The translations under genes were made by a program, and so were the position numbers. A DNA stretch of 64,000 nucleotides from Escherichia phage vB-Eco-KMB22: the sequence record OR539217.1; one strand, 5' to 3'. The first letter of the stretch is position 1, and every line of letters begins with the position of its first letter. Under the pieces are notes generated by a model. The model ran no database searches. It saw nothing but the letters and a program-made list of their open reading frames with translations, and had not been told where the DNA came from. Positions 16,199 through 23,560 of this stretch are shown in pieces.

Positions 16199-16222
16199 AT
16201 GGGGACCTTTCGGTCCCCATAT
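16199..16222. terminator. bidirectional hairpin after gene 54
   Basis: ggggacc-tttc-ggtcccc between convergent genes. Confidence 0.75.
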
Positions 16223-16224
16223 TT

Positions 16225-16515
16225 TTATTTACGGAATGAAATGAAAGCAGAAACTGAAGCAACTAAACTGTCTTCAATATAAACTTCAATTTTTACCGGA
16301 GCTTCTGACTCGAATTTACCTGTTACTACACCTTGGAAAATACTTTCAGTTTGTTCTGGCTTTGAAAAATTTTCAGAAGGAAAAATTCCGAACTTTTTAT
16401 CTGTTCCAAAAATTTTGATAAATTCATCATAAACTGCTTCATTAAAAGCATTATCAGCAGGAATAACGCCTTCAACTACAAGTTCTTGACCTAAAAAGCG
16501 CAAAGAAGATTTCAT
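16225..16515 (-). CDS. hypothetical early protein
   Basis: 96-aa ORF with GAGGAA SD; early promoter immediately upstream (16547-16576). Confidence 0.6.
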   Translation of the reverse strand: MKSSLRFLGQELVVEGVIPADNAFNEAVYDEFIKIFGTDKKFGIFPSENFSKPEQTESIFQGVVTGKFESEAPVKIEVYIEDSLVASVSAFISFRK

Positions 16516-16546: not shown

Positions 16547-16576
16547 ACTATAACACAACACGAGGGACTTGTAAAC
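16547..16576 (-). promoter_or_regulatory. early (sigma70-type) promoter GTTTACA-17-TATAGT
   Basis: -35/-10 spacing and 54-bp near-identity with 32333-32386. Confidence 0.7.
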
Positions 16577-18633
16577 TACATCTTGAACTTTTTAGACATT
16601 CCGTTGATGTTAACCAAAGAAGCCAAGATTTGAGAAACTTCGTTTTCCTCTTCTTTTGATTCTTCTACAAGGAATTGATTAAATCCAGCCATTGGACGAA
16701 CTTCACCAGTTTCCATTAAATGGTCGCCATCATATACTGATTCTTCTAATTGTTCAGAAGGAGGAACGATTGTACCTTCTATTAGATACTTGTTATAAGC
16801 AGTTTCTTTCATAAAGTACGTACTTACTTTATTAATCTTCAGTAAAATTCCACGCGGTAGAATAACTTCAGCTTCTGATGGAAATCCTGATAAATGACCT
16901 GGAACGATAACTTTGATTCGCTCAGCTCCTTTAATTACCATACCCACGCTAGTTTCAGCATCTTCAATGGCATATGTAGAATGACTACCCATATGCATTA
17001 AATCTTCTGCATCAACGGAACCTTCTCCTTCGCCAGAAAATACTGCGCCGGAATCATCTAGAGCCATATAGTTTTTACCATGCTCACCGAAGATATTTGG
17101 TTTAAGTGATGTCGATACGAAGTTCTTGAAATAGAACATTTTGTTTTCAATGTTATGACGCAAAGTTTTAAAGGTAACTTCTTGTCCACGGTAAAGTGTA
17201 GTTCCTGGAGGAAGAACTGATCCTTTGGCAAAGGCAGAATCCAACGTCTCGATGTGCTTAATAGCTCGTTCCATATATTCTTCACGGGTAGAATCTGGTT
17301 TACCCAAAAGGAACGAGTTCATTTCAACATATGAATCTGCACAATAATCTTCAATTACATCAGATTCAGCTTGGGTTAATCCTTTTGGAGTTACTTCGGT
17401 GCTTGCGTATTCATATGCCTGGGCAGCAGATTCATTAATCAATTTATAAATGCCATTCATGACAAATTGAATAATAGCTGTCTTTTCATCTGGCGTAGCT
17501 TTAGAACCTTTAACTAAATCATTAATAATTTTCTTAATAACATCAAAGCTATTAGAAATATTAATGTCAGCAAGATCGCTTAAAATTTTATCAGTTTTAT
17601 AATCAAAGAATTCTTTATTCTTTAAATATTCTTGAGAACCTTGATATGTTATATCGCTCTGCAACTTGATAGATGGATCACGTAAACGTGCATGGGCTAA
17701 TGCAATATGATTTCGGAAGTTTTCTAGTTCATAATCGTTAGATTTAAAACGAGAAGCACTTCTCATACCACCGATAGCTCCTTTGCTAAAGTTTGAACCA
17801 ATCTGGATAACCCCGGAGTTCATCGGACCTTCTGCTTTATATACCGGAACTTTAGATTCAAACTCTTGATATTTCTTGACAGCGAAGCTATCACCCTGGA
17901 GTGAAGCATCAACAGTAGAATATTGAGCTTGTGCTGCTAATCGACGACTAATTTTAGTTTTCTGAATAACAGCTTGATCCGTGCGCTTATCATTTTCTAA
18001 AGCAATAGAAGCAGCAACAGCAACAGCTTTAGGAACAGCATTACCTGTTTTAACGTCTACATAAACATCACCAACCTTTGATTCAACTTTTGTGAATAAC
18101 TCAGTTGAAATAGGAGGTACACCTGGAATGTCTTCTAAATTGGCATTTTTACGGTAAACCATAATATATGCATATTTCTTATCATAGTCCCAGATTTCCT
18201 TTAAGAGAACATATCGACCTGCTCCTTTAGTACGTACTAAACGGTCAGCAATAACTTGCATTTGACGAGCTGCGCCATTTGTTTTACTCTTTAGTACGCG
18301 GAATAGGCATGCGTCGATTTTATACTGTTTCATTGTTTGAAGAGCAGTATCAAAAACAGCATTAATGACGCCAATTGGATTTCCACCCAAGTTTCTAAGC
18401 TTAACCAGCGATAATTTCTCGTTGACACCTATCATTACGATATGCATCATTTTATCGCCCGGCTTAACGTTTTTATTTGTATCACCGCCAGAGGTGTATG
18501 TACAAAATCTAAATCCAGGAAGCACGCTTTCTTCACCGGCTTGAATAGCAAAAATTTGAGGTATTTTATGCTTAGGATTTAAGTTAACAACCGGCGCCGA
18601 AGCGCCGTCAAATAATTCTGTAATAAGTTCCAT
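16576..18633 (-). CDS. Alt-family mono-ADP-ribosyltransferase paralog
   Basis: 685 aa; N-terminal ~235 aa closely parallel the downstream Alt (MELITELFD...); C-terminal region has ART R / STS / EAE motifs (LYRGQ, FVSTSL, EAEVILPRG). Confidence 0.8.
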   Translation of the reverse strand: MELITELFDGASAPVVNLNPKHKIPQIFAIQAGEESVLPGFRFCTYTSGGDTNKNVKPGDKMMHIVMIGVNEKLSLVKLRNLGGNPIGVINAVFDTALQTMKQYKIDACLFRVLKSKTNGAARQMQVIADRLVRTKGAGRYVLLKEIWDYDKKYAYIMVYRKNANLEDIPGVPPISTELFTKVESKVGDVYVDVKTGNAVPKAVAVAASIALENDKRTDQAVIQKTKISRRLAAQAQYSTVDASLQGDSFAVKKYQEFESKVPVYKAEGPMNSGVIQIGSNFSKGAIGGMRSASRFKSNDYELENFRNHIALAHARLRDPSIKLQSDITYQGSQEYLKNKEFFDYKTDKILSDLADINISNSFDVIKKIINDLVKGSKATPDEKTAIIQFVMNGIYKLINESAAQAYEYASTEVTPKGLTQAESDVIEDYCADSYVEMNSFLLGKPDSTREEYMERAIKHIETLDSAFAKGSVLPPGTTLYRGQEVTFKTLRHNIENKMFYFKNFVSTSLKPNIFGEHGKNYMALDDSGAVFSGEGEGSVDAEDLMHMGSHSTYAIEDAETSVGMVIKGAERIKVIVPGHLSGFPSEAEVILPRGILLKINKVSTYFMKETAYNKYLIEGTIVPPSEQLEESVYDGDHLMETGEVRPMAGFNQFLVEESKEEENEVSQILASLVNINGMSKKFKM

Positions 18634-18636
18634 GAT

Positions 18637-20733
18637 TTATCCTTGAACGAACTTGTAAGGCATGTTTGTAATATCTATGCAAGACGCAATAATTCCAAGA
18701 GATGATTCTACTTTCTGTTTAACATTTGATGAAACAAATGATGCAAAGTCAACTCTGTCTTCTATTTCAATATCACCTGTCATTGCAACTACTTCACCGG
18801 TTTCCATTAAATGGTCTCCGTCATAGATTACCGATTCGGTGAGCTCTTCCGTGGTCATAACTTCAGCTTGAATGAGTTTTGTATTATTAGATGTTGTTCC
18901 GTCATTATTAGAAGCATCAGTTATTTTATTAACTTTGACCATCAATCCACGCGGTAGAATAACTTCAGCTTCTGTTGCTATTCCGAGACTTCCTGGATAT
19001 ACAACATTAACTTTATGAGCTCCATCAATTGCCCATCCTATTTGAACTTTAACGTATTCAGGATTTTCTTTATACGCTCTTATTTCGTTTGGATTAATAG
19101 TTATTCCTTCTTCATTTTTATCAACTGTTAATTCATTGCGAGCTTCTGGTTCTAAAAGACCAATACCAGCATGTGTGATTCCAAAACGTCCAAAAATGAT
19201 AGGAGTTAAAGAAGTAGATACAAAATTTCTGAAGTAGAACACTTTATTTTTAACTAACGCTTCATATATAGGAGCAGTCATACTTTGAGCACGATAAACT
19301 GTAATGCCTTCTGGTATACGGTCACCATTTTCAAAAGCTGAATCTAAGTTATTTATAGCAGATTCAATTTCTTTTTCACTCATTACATCATATCGTTCTG
19401 GATTGTAACGACCTAAAAGAAGATTATTGATGTCAGTATATCCTGAACCGCAATATTCTCTAATGCCACGCTTTTGTGATGGAGTATATTTAGAACCATC
19501 GCGGGCAATAGTAATATCAATCATTGGACCAGCACCAATTCCAGAAAAACTGTAAATCATTCGTTTGAGGAATTTAGTTTTTGCTGCGTTCCAGGAATTT
19601 TTAGTCATTTCTTCCCAGACTTCATCTGGCTGCCCTTTACGAGTTTTATTATGTTTATCAAGCCAATTATCTTTATATTCTTCAAAGAGTTGATTAACAG
19701 CTGCTGCGTATTTCTCTAAACATTTTATTGAAGTAGTTGGTTCATTTTTAATCGCATTAAGAATTACATCTTTAATTTTTTCAGAAACTTCATTAACCTC
19801 ACTTTTTGAAAAGAATTTATAGTCATAATGAAGTTCATCTGCGGTTCCTTCGGCAATAATTTTTGCTGCCTTAGTTTTAGAAGCTAATGAATTAATTCCA
19901 AGTTTCATTTCTTCTGCTTCGGGAATTAAAGGAGCGGTAGCAGGTTTATTGAAATTAGCTGCGGTAGATTCATATTTCTGGAATAATTCACTTTCAAATC
20001 TAGAAGATTCCAATGACTGACTTTGTGCAATTGCTCTACGGGAAATTTTAACTTTAACGATTACAGCTTGGTCAGAACGTTTATCATTTTCTTGTGCAAT
20101 AGATGCAGCAATTGCCTCATTTTTAGTTACTTGAGCTCCAGTATCTTTATTGATATAAACATCACCGACCTTCGATTCAACTTTAGTAAAGAGCTCGGTG
20201 CTAATTTCCGGAACTCCTGGAATGTCTTCTAGTGATACATTTTTGCGATGTATAAGAATATATGCATACTTTTTATCGTAATCCCAGAGTTCCTTAAGAA
20301 GGACGTATCTGCCACCTGAACGACTGCGGATAAGTCTATCAGCAATAAGTTGAATTTGACGAGCTTGACCAGCAGTTTTAGACTTAAGAATACGGAGCAT
20401 ACAGGCATCAATTTTATACTGACGCATCGTCTGCATCGCAACAGTAAAAACTGAATTGATGTAATTAATTGGGCTTGGACCGAGACCTTTTAATTTAGCA
20501 ATTGAACCTTTAGCAGTTAATGTAAAAGGAACAATATGCATCATTTTATCGCCCATCTTTAAATCGCGATTAGTATCACCTCCAGATGTATAGGTACATA
20601 AACGAAAGCCTGGTTGTTCAATTGCGTCATCAACACGAACTGAAAAAATTTGCGGTATTTTCTTCTTTGGATTTAAGTTTGTAATCGGAAGAGTAGTATC
20701 TTCGTCAAATAATTCTGTAATAAGTTCCATCAT
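18637..20733 (-). CDS. alt: Alt ADP-ribosyltransferase (head-packaged, injected)
   Basis: 698 aa; MELITE N-terminal propeptide; R-STS-EXE motifs; late promoter TATAAATA upstream at 20754-20761. Confidence 0.85.
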   Translation of the reverse strand: MMELITELFDEDTTLPITNLNPKKKIPQIFSVRVDDAIEQPGFRLCTYTSGGDTNRDLKMGDKMMHIVPFTLTAKGSIAKLKGLGPSPINYINSVFTVAMQTMRQYKIDACMLRILKSKTAGQARQIQLIADRLIRSRSGGRYVLLKELWDYDKKYAYILIHRKNVSLEDIPGVPEISTELFTKVESKVGDVYINKDTGAQVTKNEAIAASIAQENDKRSDQAVIVKVKISRRAIAQSQSLESSRFESELFQKYESTAANFNKPATAPLIPEAEEMKLGINSLASKTKAAKIIAEGTADELHYDYKFFSKSEVNEVSEKIKDVILNAIKNEPTTSIKCLEKYAAAVNQLFEEYKDNWLDKHNKTRKGQPDEVWEEMTKNSWNAAKTKFLKRMIYSFSGIGAGPMIDITIARDGSKYTPSQKRGIREYCGSGYTDINNLLLGRYNPERYDVMSEKEIESAINNLDSAFENGDRIPEGITVYRAQSMTAPIYEALVKNKVFYFRNFVSTSLTPIIFGRFGITHAGIGLLEPEARNELTVDKNEEGITINPNEIRAYKENPEYVKVQIGWAIDGAHKVNVVYPGSLGIATEAEVILPRGLMVKVNKITDASNNDGTTSNNTKLIQAEVMTTEELTESVIYDGDHLMETGEVVAMTGDIEIEDRVDFASFVSSNVKQKVESSLGIIASCIDITNMPYKFVQG

Positions 20734-20753: not shown

Positions 20754-20761
20754 TATTTATA
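20754..20761 (-). promoter_or_regulatory. late promoter TATAAATA for alt
   Basis: exact match on - strand upstream of alt ATG. Confidence 0.65.
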
Positions 20762-20765
20762 AAAT

Positions 20766-20787
20766 TAAAGGCCCGAAGGCCTTTAAT
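20766..20787 (-). terminator. CUUCGG hairpin upstream of alt late promoter
   Basis: aaaggcc-cgaa-ggccttt (UUCG on - strand). Confidence 0.6.
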
Positions 20788-20971
20788 AATCTATTGGTAA
20801 GAGAGTACGATATATTTCAAACTTTGGGCCTTTTTCATAAGCATCAAAAGTTTCTGTGAATTTATTATAAGCATATGCATCTATAAATTCAATCATGATT
20901 TGTGATACAGAAGTAGAAACATCTCCACCTTCTTTTTGAGCCACGACAATTGTTTCTAAGTAAGCTTTCAT
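20783..20971 (-). CDS. hypothetical small protein
   Basis: 62-aa ORF between ligase and alt. Confidence 0.5.
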   Translation of the reverse strand: MKAYLETIVVAQKEGGDVSTSVSQIMIEFIDAYAYNKFTETFDAYEKGPKFEIYRTLLPIDY

Positions 20972-22431: not shown

Positions 22432-22697
22432 TGTTCATCCTTTAGAGTTTGATTTACAGCTCTATTATAAATCAATTCATCATTAAGCTCAGGCAAAGAC
22501 TTATGATATGTAGTTCTAACTTTATTTCCTTGCATCCAGTGCTTGACGTAAATGAAACCTTGCTCTACGCATTTTTTAAAAATTCGTTCGTCTTTTTGAG
22601 CTCGGAATTCTGGATTGCATCTAAAAAATTGATTTACGTGACCGTAATCACGTGTAGTATTACCTTCATTTTCATAAATAGTGTGAACGACAAACAT
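22428..22697 (-). CDS. hypothetical protein (30.1 position)
   Basis: 89-aa ORF, start/stop coupled to neighbours. Confidence 0.6.
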   Translation of the reverse strand: MFVVHTIYENEGNTTRDYGHVNQFFRCNPEFRAQKDERIFKKCVEQGFIYVKHWMQGNKVRTTYHKSLPELNDELIYNRAVNQTLKDEQ

Positions 22698-23560
22698 TAG
22701 AATGCTCCTTGGAAAATATTATCACCACTAGTAAATCTATTAAAATACCCTGCATCACCAGGCTTAGTATAACTCCACGTATGGAATGGATTCATATGAT
22801 ACGGGTGTGTATAATATGGATTATATGGATGTGTATAATATGGATTATACGGATTAAATCCAGGAGTTCTCCAGGTAGTGTTCCAACGAAAAGAATCATT
22901 TTTAATCATCTTTTCAATTACATCTTTTATAGCTTTTTCACTATCAAAACTTTCTTTATTTTCCTTCGGTGAAAAAAGCTTATTTTCTACATCATTCCAT
23001 GTATAAACTCGCTGCGCAGTTTTTGGAATATTGTCACGCTCTCCTCGAGCCATCCAATAAACAGGAACATTTAATATTTCACTCGCATGATCGCAGTGGT
23101 GAGCAAGATCGTCAATATAACAAATTACGTTATATTTCTCTTTTGCCTTTTTGAATAACTCTTCTTTTGAAGAATCATGACCACACATCATTACTTCTGA
23201 GAAGGCACCAGGAAAAAGAGCATTCAAATTAAATTGACGATTCAACAAAGCATCAATAGAATCACCCAATGCTGTAACAGCTACAAAATTATAATCTTCT
23301 TTTAGTTTGTTAATTACACACAGGGCATCTTTATATGGAGACAAATAGCGAATAAAATCTGAACGATTATACTTTTCGATTAATTTAACACCGAGTTCTT
23401 CATCGCAATTAAAGAGCTTACCAGGAGAAATAAATTTTTCGTCCTGAATCATTTTTAAAATATGTTCTAATGGAAGATTATATTTTTGGGCAAAATAAGG
23501 AAGACCTGATTGCCAGCTTAAACATACACCATCAATATCAGTCAAAATAGTAGGCTTCAT
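22697..23560 (-). CDS. HAD-like hydrolase with Pro/Tyr-rich C-terminal repeat (30.2 position)
   Basis: 287 aa; N-terminal DIDGV HAD motif I; C-terminal NPYNPYYTHPY repeats encoded by 24-bp tandem repeat. Confidence 0.65.
   Translation of the reverse strand: MKPTILTDIDGVCLSWQSGLPYFAQKYNLPLEHILKMIQDEKFISPGKLFNCDEELGVKLIEKYNRSDFIRYLSPYKDALCVINKLKEDYNFVAVTALGDSIDALLNRQFNLNALFPGAFSEVMMCGHDSSKEELFKKAKEKYNVICYIDDLAHHCDHASEILNVPVYWMARGERDNIPKTAQRVYTWNDVENKLFSPKENKESFDSEKAIKDVIEKMIKNDSFRWNTTWRTPGFNPYNPYYTHPYNPYYTHPYHMNPFHTWSYTKPGDAGYFNRFTSGDNIFQGAF
22805..22852. repeat. 24-bp in-frame tandem repeat (2 units, 22/24 identical) in HAD-like gene
   Basis: encodes repeated NPYYTHPY on - strand. Confidence 0.85.

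What the first reader, a model, noticed from the sequence alone, without database searches (positions are those of the whole stretch)
16576..20733. Tandem pair of Alt-family ADP-ribosyltransferases with diverged middle and C-terminal regions
Two adjacent - strand ORFs (685 and 698 aa, 3-bp spacer) share a closely similar N-terminal ~235 residues, including the MELITE start typical of a prohead-protease-cleaved propeptide. Both keep arginine-ART catalytic signatures (R, STS, EAEVILPRG). The central regions and sequences flanking the catalytic motifs differ strongly. I recall only one full-length Alt in T4, so this may be a duplicated injected effector with a second target specificity. Only the downstream copy has its own late promoter, so both would be co-transcribed late and potentially co-packaged.
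Basis: partly seen in the sequence, partly recalled or inferred. Interest (0 to 1): 0.6.

Follow-up and report, generated by a model that had tools for sequence, protein, structure and literature searches.

The report
Two tandem Alt ADP-ribosyltransferase genes
This T4-like phage carries two neighbouring, intact genes for Alt-type toxin-like enzymes that are probably injected into the host; this is the ordinary, already annotated arrangement in phages T2, T6 and about 400 relatives, and laboratory phage T4 is the exception because it has lost most of the second gene.

Summary
Two - strand genes sit 3 bp apart: 18637-20730 ("altA", 697 aa) and 16576-18633 ("altB", 685 aa). They are 41% identical overall: 67% in the N-terminal 236 residues, 15% in the helical middle, 19% between the STS and ExE motifs. 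Both pass the Pfam ART cut-off and keep invariant R, S-T-S and E-x-E residues. altA is the T4 Alt orthologue. altB is the full-length form of the gene that T4 keeps only as the alt.-1/alt.-2 remnant (1.69 kb deletion plus a 1-nt frameshift). The intact pair occurs in T2, T6, RB32 and about 400 phage records, usually annotated "Alt-like RNA polymerase ADP-ribosyltransferase" twice, so it is not new. altB is functional: dN/dS is 0.03 against T2, and it supplies the only Alt catalytic module in ECML-134 and Yersinia phage PST, where unequal crossover collapsed the pair into one hybrid gene. The most likely mechanism is late co-transcription from one TATAAATA promoter, packaging through the shared N-domain, gp21 trimming, injection, and arginine ADP-ribosylation of partly different host targets. 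Packaging of altB and its distinct targets are inferred, not shown. I found no functional study of altB.

The parts
20767..20784 (-). Hairpin AAAGGCC-TTCG-GGCCTTT followed by AATTTT, overlapping the alt.1 stop codon; a terminator-like element just upstream of the alt late promoter
   Evidence: Read directly from the sequence. The identical block is present in T4 and T2. A conserved terminator upstream of alt was noted in PMC1524935. The simple terminator scan did not report it because its T-run is short.
20754..20761 (-). T4-type late promoter TATAAATA, about 13-20 nt upstream of the altA start codons
   Evidence: Conserved at the same place in T4 and T2. T4 alt is a late gene by transcriptome and proteome (PMC9697503).
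18637..20730 (-). altA, 697 aa (698 aa if the in-frame ATG at 20733 is used): orthologue of T4 alt, carrying the T2/T6-type catalytic cassette
   Evidence: 70% identical to T4 Alt overall: 99% in residues 1-236, 93% in the tail, 32-39% in the linker and in the STS-ExE stretch. Pfam PF03496, 129 bits. PHROG 802 matched end to end. Weak PDB sequence hits to CDTa and iota Ia align the R and ExE motifs.
18946..19992 (-). altA residues 247-595: variable linker plus ART-core cassette
   Evidence: tblastn against phage records is bimodal: 318 records at >=90% identity (including T6, RB6, wV7), 33 at 80-90%, and 858 below 60%, where T4-type phages score 44-47%.
18640..18644 (-). AAGGA Shine-Dalgarno for altB, inside the end of altA, 6 nt before the altB ATG; 3-bp spacer at 18634-18636
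   Evidence: Read directly from the sequence. No terminator-like site between the two genes.
16576..18633 (-). altB, 685 aa: full-length form of RB32 alt.-2 and of the T4 alt.-1/alt.-2 remnant; second Alt-family ART
   Evidence: Pfam PF03496, 71.8 bits. PHROG 802 matched end to end. AlphaFold2 model with pLDDT 75.7, whose ART core matches Vis, C3, Certhrax, VIP2 and iota/CDTa at probability 1.0. dN/dS 0.026 against T2. The 90% identity cluster has 772 members.
17926..18633 (-). altB N-terminal domain (aa 1-236), including the MELITE propeptide; the family is named PF26846 Tevenvirinae_ADPRT in precomputed Pfam hits
   Evidence: 67% identical to the altA N-domain. Domain model has pLDDT 85 and pTM 0.83, with residues 1-9 disordered. 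In the exhaustive search it is always N-terminal and almost always paired with an ART domain.
16759..17388 (-). altB ART domain (aa 416-625); catalytic codons R482 at 17188-17190, S507-T-S509 at 17107-17115, E587-A-E589 at 16867-16875
   Evidence: dN/dS for aa 411-625 is 0.012.
16596..18285 (-). The 1,690-bp segment of altB that is deleted in phage T4
   Evidence: The T4 remnant aligns to altB nt 1-355 (95%), then to the last ~80 nt of the altB region (97.5%). The junction lies in an imperfect 9-bp repeat, CTAAAGAGT / CTAAAAAGT. This segment is present in 401 phage records at 94-99.9% identity.
16225..16515 (-). alt.-3 (96 aa, Pfam DUF5498), the conserved downstream neighbour, with its own sigma-70 early-type promoter at 16547-16575 and a bidirectional terminator at 16199-16220
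20783..20971 (-). alt.1 (62 aa, Pfam PF24647 'Phage blade protein'), the conserved upstream neighbour

Best explanation
The region holds the standard two-gene alt locus of T-even (Tequatrovirus) phages. altA (18637-20730) is the orthologue of T4 Alt. altB (16576-18633) is an old, intact paralogue, annotated alt.-2 in RB32. Proposed mechanism: late in infection both genes are transcribed as one message from the TATAAATA promoter at 20754-20761, and altB is translated from its own Shine-Dalgarno sequence 3 bp after the altA stop. Each protein uses the shared N-terminal domain and MELITE propeptide to enter the prohead core, is trimmed by the gp21 prohead protease, stays in the filled head and is injected with the DNA. 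Inside the new host, each uses NAD+ to mono-ADP-ribosylate arginine residues of host proteins through an R / S-T-S / E-x-E active site. The helical linker and the loops between STS and ExE are only 15-19% identical, so the two enzymes probably prefer partly different targets. Shown here: gene structure, homology, intact catalytic residues, ART fold of altB, purifying selection, and distribution across phages. Taken from the T4 literature for altA's orthologue only: late expression, about 40 copies per head, gp21 processing at both ends, injection, and RNA polymerase alpha and other targets. Inferred: co-transcription, packaging and activity of altB, and distinct target sets.
For: Synteny with T4, RB32, T2 and T6, between gene 54/alt.-3 and alt.1/gene 30. 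Both proteins pass the Pfam PF03496 cut-off and match PHROG 802 end to end. The catalytic R, both S and both E are invariant across 24 family members and T508 is >=90% conserved, and they map onto the T4 Alt motif; the ExE glutamate mutant 'E577A' is inactive (PMC11404850; mapping). The altB model has a C3/VIP2/iota-like ART core. altB is under strong purifying selection: 58 synonymous against 6 nonsynonymous differences from T2, dN/dS 0.026, and 0.012 in the ART core. altB's catalytic part is the only Alt-type module in the viable isolates ECML-134 and PST. The late promoter and hairpin are conserved in T4 and T2. There is no terminator between the genes and a Shine-Dalgarno sequence precedes altB. 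The N-domain is 67% conserved between paralogues while the rest is 15-48%. T4 literature: gpAlt is a prohead-core protein at about 40 copies with an N-terminal peptide removed by gp21 (PMC9958956), it is also processed at the C-terminus (PMC9026906), and it is expressed late (PMC9697503).
Against: There is no direct evidence that altB is translated, packaged or enzymatically active. I found no paper on it. T4 and roughly 100 related records do without altB, so it is dispensable at least in some hosts. The internal TATAAATA at 19350-19357 could give altB a separate late transcript. Divergence of the specificity loops shows difference in sequence, not necessarily different targets. altA's structure was not modelled.
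Confidence: 0.75

Rival explanations
1. altB is a redundant dosage copy. It modifies the same host proteins as altA (RNA polymerase alpha and others) and simply raises the amount of injected ART.
For: Same catalytic motif, EAEVILPRG, and the same ExE arginine-type signature in both. Some phages manage with only one of the two catalytic modules: T4 with altA type, ECML-134 and PST with altB type. This could mean the modules are interchangeable.
Against: A dosage copy would not be expected to hold 15-19% identity in the linker and the STS-ExE loops while each lineage stays 94-99.9% conserved in about 400 genomes under dN/dS 0.03-0.06. Tandem pairs with similarly diverged partners persist in a more distant T4-like contig and in phage 44RR (PMC1524935).
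Confidence: 0.15
2. altB is made late but is not packaged. It acts inside the producing cell, or is a non-catalytic internal head or structural protein (a pseudoenzyme).
For: There are no proteomic data for altB. In T4, Alt also has a volume-occupying role in the head, since alt- mutants package more DNA (PMC3012670).
Against: The MELITE propeptide and the N-domain are conserved with the protein known to be packaged. The catalytic residues are invariant. The lowest dN/dS falls in the ART core, 0.012, which argues for a working enzyme.
Confidence: 0.07
3. altB is a decaying duplicate, or an insertion into alt.-2 as the RB32 note words it, with no function of its own.
For: T4 carries only a wreck of it. 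The RB32 record note says 'apparent insertion in alt.-2'.
Against: The ORF is intact in all four tandem-pair loci inspected (window, RB32, T2, T6) and its T4-deleted segment is 94-99.9% conserved in 401 records, with dN/dS 0.026. The T4 state shows a deletion between short repeats plus a 1-nt frameshift in an A-run, which cuts a folded domain in half. Relatives at 45-50% identity exist in other genera.
Confidence: 0.03

Closest known systems
Phage T4 Alt (gpAlt, NP_049811), the head-packaged, injected NAD+:arginine mono-ADP-ribosyltransferase
   Same: altA is its positional orthologue. It has the same flanking genes, the same late promoter and hairpin, 99% identity in the N-domain, 93% in the tail, and the same R/STS/ExE motifs. 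altB shares the architecture, PHROG 802 end to end, the MELITE start and the DGDHLMETGE tail motif.
   Different: altA's linker and ART core are a different allelic cassette from T4's (32-39% identity in the linker and STS-ExE stretch, 70-74% around the R and STS motifs). altB is only 41% identical overall and 10-27% in the linker and the STS-ExE loops.
RB32 alt.-2 (YP_803136) and the identical tandem pairs of T2, T6 and RB14; the T4 alt.-1/alt.-2 remnant
   Same: altB is this gene. It has the same length (685 aa), the same position and the same 3-bp spacer, with 94-99.9% DNA identity over the T4-deleted 1.69 kb in 401 records. T4 alt.-1 and alt.-2 are its 5' end and extreme 3' end.
   Different: No difference of kind. 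The window is one more instance of the same arrangement. T4 differs by a 1,690-bp deletion and a 1-nt frameshift.
T4 ModA and ModB, the non-packaged early ARTs of the same R-S-E clade
   Same: They share the R-S-E active-site chemistry and belong to the Alt/VIP2 clade (PMC5512222).
   Different: By my recollection, ModA and ModB are about 200 aa, expressed early, and lack both the Tevenvirinae_ADPRT N-domain and the propeptide. They were not compared here by alignment.
C3 exoenzyme, VIP2, iota Ia/CDTa and Vis toxins (Pfam PF03496, R-S-E ARTs)
   Same: The fold of the altB ART core matches them: Foldseek probability 1.0, target-normalised TM-score 0.55-0.69 for the single-domain targets. The R, STS and ExE motifs align in sequence.
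   Different: Sequence identity is 13-20%. The toxins are secreted bacterial proteins with other delivery domains. The Alt proteins have a longer, variable insert between STS and ExE.
Single hybrid alt genes of ECML-134, Yersinia phage PST and vB_EcoM_SCS4
   Same: They are built from the same two parents: an altA-type N-domain start joined in frame to the altB middle, ART and tail, which is 98% identical to altB.
   Different: There is one gene instead of two. The crossover points differ (about nt 300, 450 and 660), so the events were independent.

Membership tests
R-S-E ADP-ribosyltransferases (Pfam PF03496 ADPrib_exo_Tox; Alt/VIP2 clade) | Profile match above the curated gathering score | tested here: met
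   altB 71.8 bits and altA 129.2 bits, against a cut-off of 23.4.
R-S-E ADP-ribosyltransferases (Pfam PF03496 ADPrib_exo_Tox; Alt/VIP2 clade) | Catalytic Arg, Ser-Thr-Ser and Glu-x-Glu present and aligned | tested here: met
   altB R482, S507-T-S509, E587-A-E589. altA R480, S505-T-S507, E587-A-E589. R, both S and both E are invariant in 24 sequences and T508 is >=90% conserved. The R and ExE motifs align to CDTa.
R-S-E ADP-ribosyltransferases (Pfam PF03496 ADPrib_exo_Tox; Alt/VIP2 clade) | ART fold | tested here: met
   The altB model (pLDDT 75.7) matches Vis, C3, VIP2, iota and CDTa at probability 1.0. altA was not modelled; it has only the sequence-level evidence.
R-S-E ADP-ribosyltransferases (Pfam PF03496 ADPrib_exo_Tox; Alt/VIP2 clade) | NAD+-dependent ADP-ribosyl transfer to arginine | not testable with these tools
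   Needs an enzyme assay. That ExE rather than QxE signals arginine specificity is established knowledge from C3 and iota toxins, not a test made here.
T4 Alt family (PHROG 802; Pfam PF26846 Tevenvirinae_ADPRT plus PF03496) | Full-length architecture: N-domain, helical linker, ART, tail | tested here: met
   Both proteins match PHROG 802 end to end: 2-674 of 674 profile positions, E = 2.7e-255 and 8.8e-273. Homologues carry PF26846 plus PF03496.
T4 Alt family (PHROG 802; Pfam PF26846 Tevenvirinae_ADPRT plus PF03496) | Conserved genomic position between gene 54/alt.-3 and alt.1/gene 30 | tested here: met
T4 Alt family (PHROG 802; Pfam PF26846 Tevenvirinae_ADPRT plus PF03496) | N-terminal propeptide ending in a gp21 (L/I)-x-E site | tested here: met
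   Both start MELITE, with I-T-E at residues 4-6. Residues 1-9 are disordered in the model. Actual cleavage cannot be tested here.
T4 Alt family (PHROG 802; Pfam PF26846 Tevenvirinae_ADPRT plus PF03496) | Late promoter driving expression | tested here: inconclusive
   TATAAATA lies directly ahead of altA and is conserved in T4 and T2. altB has none adjacent and depends on read-through or on the internal site at 19350-19357. No expression data are available for this phage.
T4 Alt family (PHROG 802; Pfam PF26846 Tevenvirinae_ADPRT plus PF03496) | Packaged in the head and injected with the DNA | not testable with these tools
   Known for T4 Alt (PMC9958956; PMC9026906). I found no virion proteomics covering altB.
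T4 Alt family (PHROG 802; Pfam PF26846 Tevenvirinae_ADPRT plus PF03496) | [quoted passage not shown] | not testable with these tools
   This is a biochemical property of T4 Alt. It is unknown both for the T2/T6-type altA cassette and for altB.

The most novel reading that the evidence does not exclude
altB would be a fourth, functionally distinct T-even ADP-ribosyltransferase. It would be delivered in the virion with its own host target set, and T4-centred work would have missed it because T4 deleted the gene. The alt locus would then behave as a recombining effector-cassette system: a conserved packaging N-domain re-paired with alternative catalytic modules. Four observations fit this: discrete altA cassette alleles, tandem pairs, hybrids from unequal crossover, and deletions. 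My evidence excludes none of this, and none of it has been tested experimentally.
Probability: 0.5. Interest if true: 0.45.

Novelty: already known. Interest (0 to 1): 0.22.

Why it matters
Nearly everything known about phage ADP-ribosylation of host proteins comes from T4, which counts three ARTs: Alt, ModA and ModB. Most natural T-even phages, including T2 and T6, encode a fourth intact ART that is under strong selection. If it is injected and hits other targets, host take-over by these phages is richer than the T4 model implies, and T2/T6 versus T4 differences in early infection or in sensitivity to defence systems could trace to it. The locus is also a clean natural example of modular effector evolution, with a conserved delivery domain and swappable catalytic cassettes. 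As a genome finding, however, it is ordinary: the genes are already annotated in hundreds of records.

Tried and rejected
NCBIfam gave no hit for either protein.

The PDB sequence search gave nothing for altB and only weak toxin hits for altA.

I tested whether the N-domain is a general packaging module fused to many effector types. Foldseek against viral models suggested this: probability 1.0 but TMq about 0.5, with 11-16% identity to large phage proteins, some annotated as zeta toxin, deaminase or ParB. The exhaustive HMMER search did not support it at sequence level. It found only 69 clusters, nearly all of Alt length, and five of the seven outliers tested carry an ART domain. It remains a weak lead.

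Counting T4-type deletion carriers by at-least-80% coverage of the T4 remnant did not work, because 83% of that query is shared with intact altB. The figure of about 100 comes from subtracting 401 from 501 and is rough.

Literature searches for any functional or proteomic study of the second copy found nothing. Koch et al. 1995 is not held in the library.

The pseudogene and 'insertion' readings of altB were rejected on the selection and junction evidence.


Full report
WHAT IS THERE

The window is a Tequatrovirus (T-even) genome segment, about 97% identical to many E. coli phages. Gene order is as in T4: gp29, gp48 and gp54 on the + strand, then alt.-3, the two long ORFs, alt.1 and DNA ligase on the - strand.

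The two ORFs are 16576-18633 (685 aa, here "altB") and 18637-20733 (698 aa), separated by 3 bp. The longer ORF starts ATGATG. T4, T2 and RB32 annotate the second ATG, and the GAGAGG Shine-Dalgarno spacing fits it better. I therefore take altA as 18637-20730, 697 aa.

CHECK OF THE OBSERVATION

The pair is 41% identical (E = 8e-162). The similarity is very uneven:
- N-terminal 236 residues: 67%
- helical linker, 237-415: 15%
- first part of the ART domain: 36%
- between the catalytic Arg and STS: 48%
- between STS and ExE: 19%, with indels
- C-terminal tail: 37%

Both proteins start MELITE. Both pass the Pfam PF03496 gathering score and match PHROG 802, "Alt-like RNA polymerase ADP-ribosyltransferase", from end to end.

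The catalytic residues are:
- altB: R482, S507-T-S509, E587-A-E589
- altA: R480, S505-T-S507, E587-A-E589
- T4 Alt: R478, S503-T-S505, E574-M-E576

R, both S and both E are invariant in a 24-sequence family alignment, and the central T508 is >=90% conserved. A published T4 Alt mutant in this motif, "E577A", is catalytically dead (PMC11404850). By my count of NP_049811 the second glutamate is E576, so the paper's numbering appears to be offset by one.

An AlphaFold2 model of altB (pLDDT 75.7) shows four parts:
- an alpha/beta N-domain, residues 11-236
- a helical region, about 240-470
- a beta-rich ART core, about 470-625
- a low-confidence tail

The ART core matches Vis, C3, Certhrax, VIP2 and iota/CDTa toxins at Foldseek probability 1.0.

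TRANSCRIPTION SIGNALS

The only TATAAATA next to a start codon is at 20754-20761 (- strand), directly ahead of altA and preceded by a hairpin that overlaps the alt.1 stop. The whole hairpin-plus-TATAAATA block is identical in T4 and T2. A conserved terminator upstream of alt was already noted in 2006 (PMC1524935).

There is no terminator-like site between altA and altB. An AAGGA Shine-Dalgarno sequence sits 6 nt before the altB ATG. Co-transcription with independent or coupled translation is therefore the simplest reading, but it is an inference.

A second TATAAATA lies inside altA (19350-19357). It is conserved in T2 and absent from the T4-type alt gene, so it could give altB a second late start. 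TATAAATA is not enriched in the window as a whole (12 found, 9.4 expected), so the internal site may be chance.

T4 alt itself is late by transcriptome and proteome (PMC9697503).

RELATION TO T4 AND OTHER PHAGES

altA is the T4 alt orthologue. altB is not a novelty:
- RB32 annotates the same 685 aa gene as alt.-2.
- T2 and T6 have the same 697 + 685 aa pair with a 3-bp spacer.
- The 1.69 kb of altB that T4 lacks is present at 94-99.9% identity in 401 phage records.
- The altB cluster at 90% identity has 772 member sequences.
- RefSeq names both genes "Alt-like RNA polymerase ADP-ribosyltransferase".

T4 carries alt.-1 (61 aa) and alt.-2 (67 aa) at this position. Their DNA is altB nt 1-355 at 95% identity, joined to the last ~80 nt of the altB region at 97.5%. 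The junction lies in an imperfect 9-bp direct repeat, CTAAAGAGT / CTAAAAAGT. A 1-nt loss in an A-run at altB nt 160 splits the remnant into two ORFs.

T4 is therefore a deletion derivative of the two-gene state. This contrasts with the T4 record's wording, "duplication of the first part of gene alt". Roughly 100 other records appear to share the remnant state (501 records with remnant-homologous DNA minus 401 with intact altB; a rough figure).

Alt paralogues, including a full-length one in phage 44RR, were reported in 2006 (PMC1524935). A more divergent T4-like contig also has a 697 + 694 aa pair with a 3-bp spacer. The arrangement is therefore old.

IS altB FUNCTIONAL?

Against T2, altB shows 58 synonymous and 6 nonsynonymous differences. 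dN/dS is 0.026 overall and 0.012 in the ART core. altA gives 0.063.

Several isolates have a single alt gene that is an in-frame hybrid, with an altA-type start and an altB-type remainder:
- ECML-134 switches at about nt 450.
- Yersinia phage PST switches near aa 100 and is 98% altB-type from residue 241 onward.
- A Logan contig (L005) switches at about nt 660.
- A 65-kb contig (L006) shows the lone hybrid gene between alt.1 and alt.-3.

Different crossover points mean independent unequal crossovers between the tandem N-domain sequences. In these phages the altB catalytic module is the only Alt-type ART present. That outcome is hard to reconcile with altB being junk.

MECHANISM

For T4 Alt the literature gives:
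- about 40 copies in the prohead core, with removal of a small N-terminal peptide by gp21 (PMC9958956)
- C-terminal processing by gp21 as well (PMC9026906)
- ejection into the host and ADP-ribosylation of RNA polymerase and other proteins (PMC5512222; PMC9026906)

altB keeps the propeptide, the N-domain and an invariant tail motif, DGDHLMETGE, which contains an L-M-E gp21-type site. I therefore infer the same route: late synthesis, core incorporation, trimming, injection, and arginine-directed mono-ADP-ribosylation. That ExE rather than QxE signals arginine specificity is established knowledge for C3 and iota-type ARTs.

The stretch between STS and ExE includes the loops that set target choice in C3-like enzymes. 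It is 19% identical between the paralogues, and the helical linker is 15% identical. This makes partly different target sets the more likely reading. Only biochemistry can settle it.

RIVAL READINGS

- A redundant dosage copy remains possible, at about 0.15.
- A non-packaged or non-catalytic protein is unlikely, given the conserved propeptide, the invariant catalytic residues and the lowest dN/dS falling in the ART core.
- A decaying duplicate is excluded by the selection and distribution data.

OTHER FINDINGS AT THE LOCUS

altA itself is a mosaic relative to T4 Alt: 99% identity in the N-domain and 93% in the tail, but 32% in the linker and 39% in the STS-ExE stretch. Across phage records this segment is bimodal: 318 records at 90% or more (T6 type), 33 at 80-90%, and the rest below 60%. 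The Alt catalytic module therefore exists as discrete allelic cassettes between conserved ends.

The N-domain has no convincing solved-structure relative. By sequence it is confined to 69 clusters among 1.8 billion representatives. It is always N-terminal and almost always paired with an ART domain. Fold-level similarity to the starts of other large phage proteins is a weak, unverified lead.

NOVELTY AND VERDICT

The feature is real and the description accurate, but it is the normal, publicly annotated state of the alt locus in T-even phages.

What is not known is what altB does. I found no functional or proteomic study of it in the searchable literature. That gap, together with the cassette and hybrid dynamics, gives the locus modest research interest. 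As a scan finding I rate it "already known", interest about 0.2.

Noticed in passing
window 18946-19992 (altA residues 247-595): altA is a mosaic relative to T4 Alt: near-identical ends, but a linker and ART core at only about 32-39% (linker, STS-ExE) to 70-74% (around R and STS) identity. Across phage records this segment is bimodal (318 records >=90%, 33 at 80-90%, 858 <60%). The Alt catalytic module therefore occurs as discrete allelic cassettes in otherwise ~97%-identical phages.
   Followed up: partly
window 16596-18285, and about 18474; T4 locus L001:5066-5451: T4's alt.-1/alt.-2 is a deletion remnant of altB. A 1,690-bp deletion lies between the imperfect 9-bp repeats CTAAAGAGT / CTAAAAAGT, and a 1-nt loss in an A-run at altB nt 160 adds a frameshift. 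The T4 record note instead calls it a duplication of the first part of alt.
   Followed up: yes
L007:1742-3802 (ECML-134), L008:1742-3802 (Yersinia phage PST), L005:5001-7061, L006:5001-7055: Some isolates have one hybrid alt gene, an altA-type N-domain start fused in frame to the altB-type remainder, alone between alt.1 and alt.-3. Crossover points differ (about nt 300, 450 and 660). These are independent unequal crossovers between the tandem N-domains.
   Followed up: yes
window 16702-16731 (altB aa 635-644) and 18793-18822 (altA aa 637-646): A DGDHLMETGE motif in the otherwise variable, low-confidence tail is identical in altA, altB and T4 Alt, and 7 of its 10 residues are invariant across the family. 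It contains L-M-E, a gp21-type (L/I)-x-E site. T4 Alt is reported to be C-terminally processed by gp21 (PMC9026906), but the text I could read does not give the site. altB has three other L/I-x-E candidates in its tail.
   Followed up: partly
[not shown]
   Followed up: partly
window 20728-20733: altA begins ATGATG, as does T4 alt. Records annotate the second ATG, making MELITE a 6-residue propeptide. A review speaks of a 7-residue Alt propeptide, which would fit MMELITE from the first ATG.
   Followed up: no
window 19350-19357 (- strand): A second TATAAATA lies inside altA, about 715 nt upstream of altB. It is conserved in T2 and absent from the T4-type alt gene. It could be a separate late start for altB, or chance.
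   Followed up: partly
window 16547-16575 and 16199-16220: alt.-3 (DUF5498) has its own sigma-70 early-type promoter, TTTACA-17-TATAGT with an upstream TG, placed immediately after the altB stop codon. A perfect 9-bp-stem bidirectional terminator lies between alt.-3 and gene 54. alt.-3 is therefore probably expressed early, unlike the alt genes next to it.
   Followed up: no
window 22697-23560 (gp30.2 homologue, 287 aa): The C-terminal part contains a tandemly repeated peptide...NPYNPYYTHPYNPYYTHPYHMNPF... The T4 gene is 278 aa.
   Followed up: no
T4 Alt, L001:5455-7503: The published inactive mutant is called E577A (PMC11404850). In NP_049811 as translated here, the ExE glutamates are E574 and E576, so the paper's numbering seems offset by one.
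   Followed up: no
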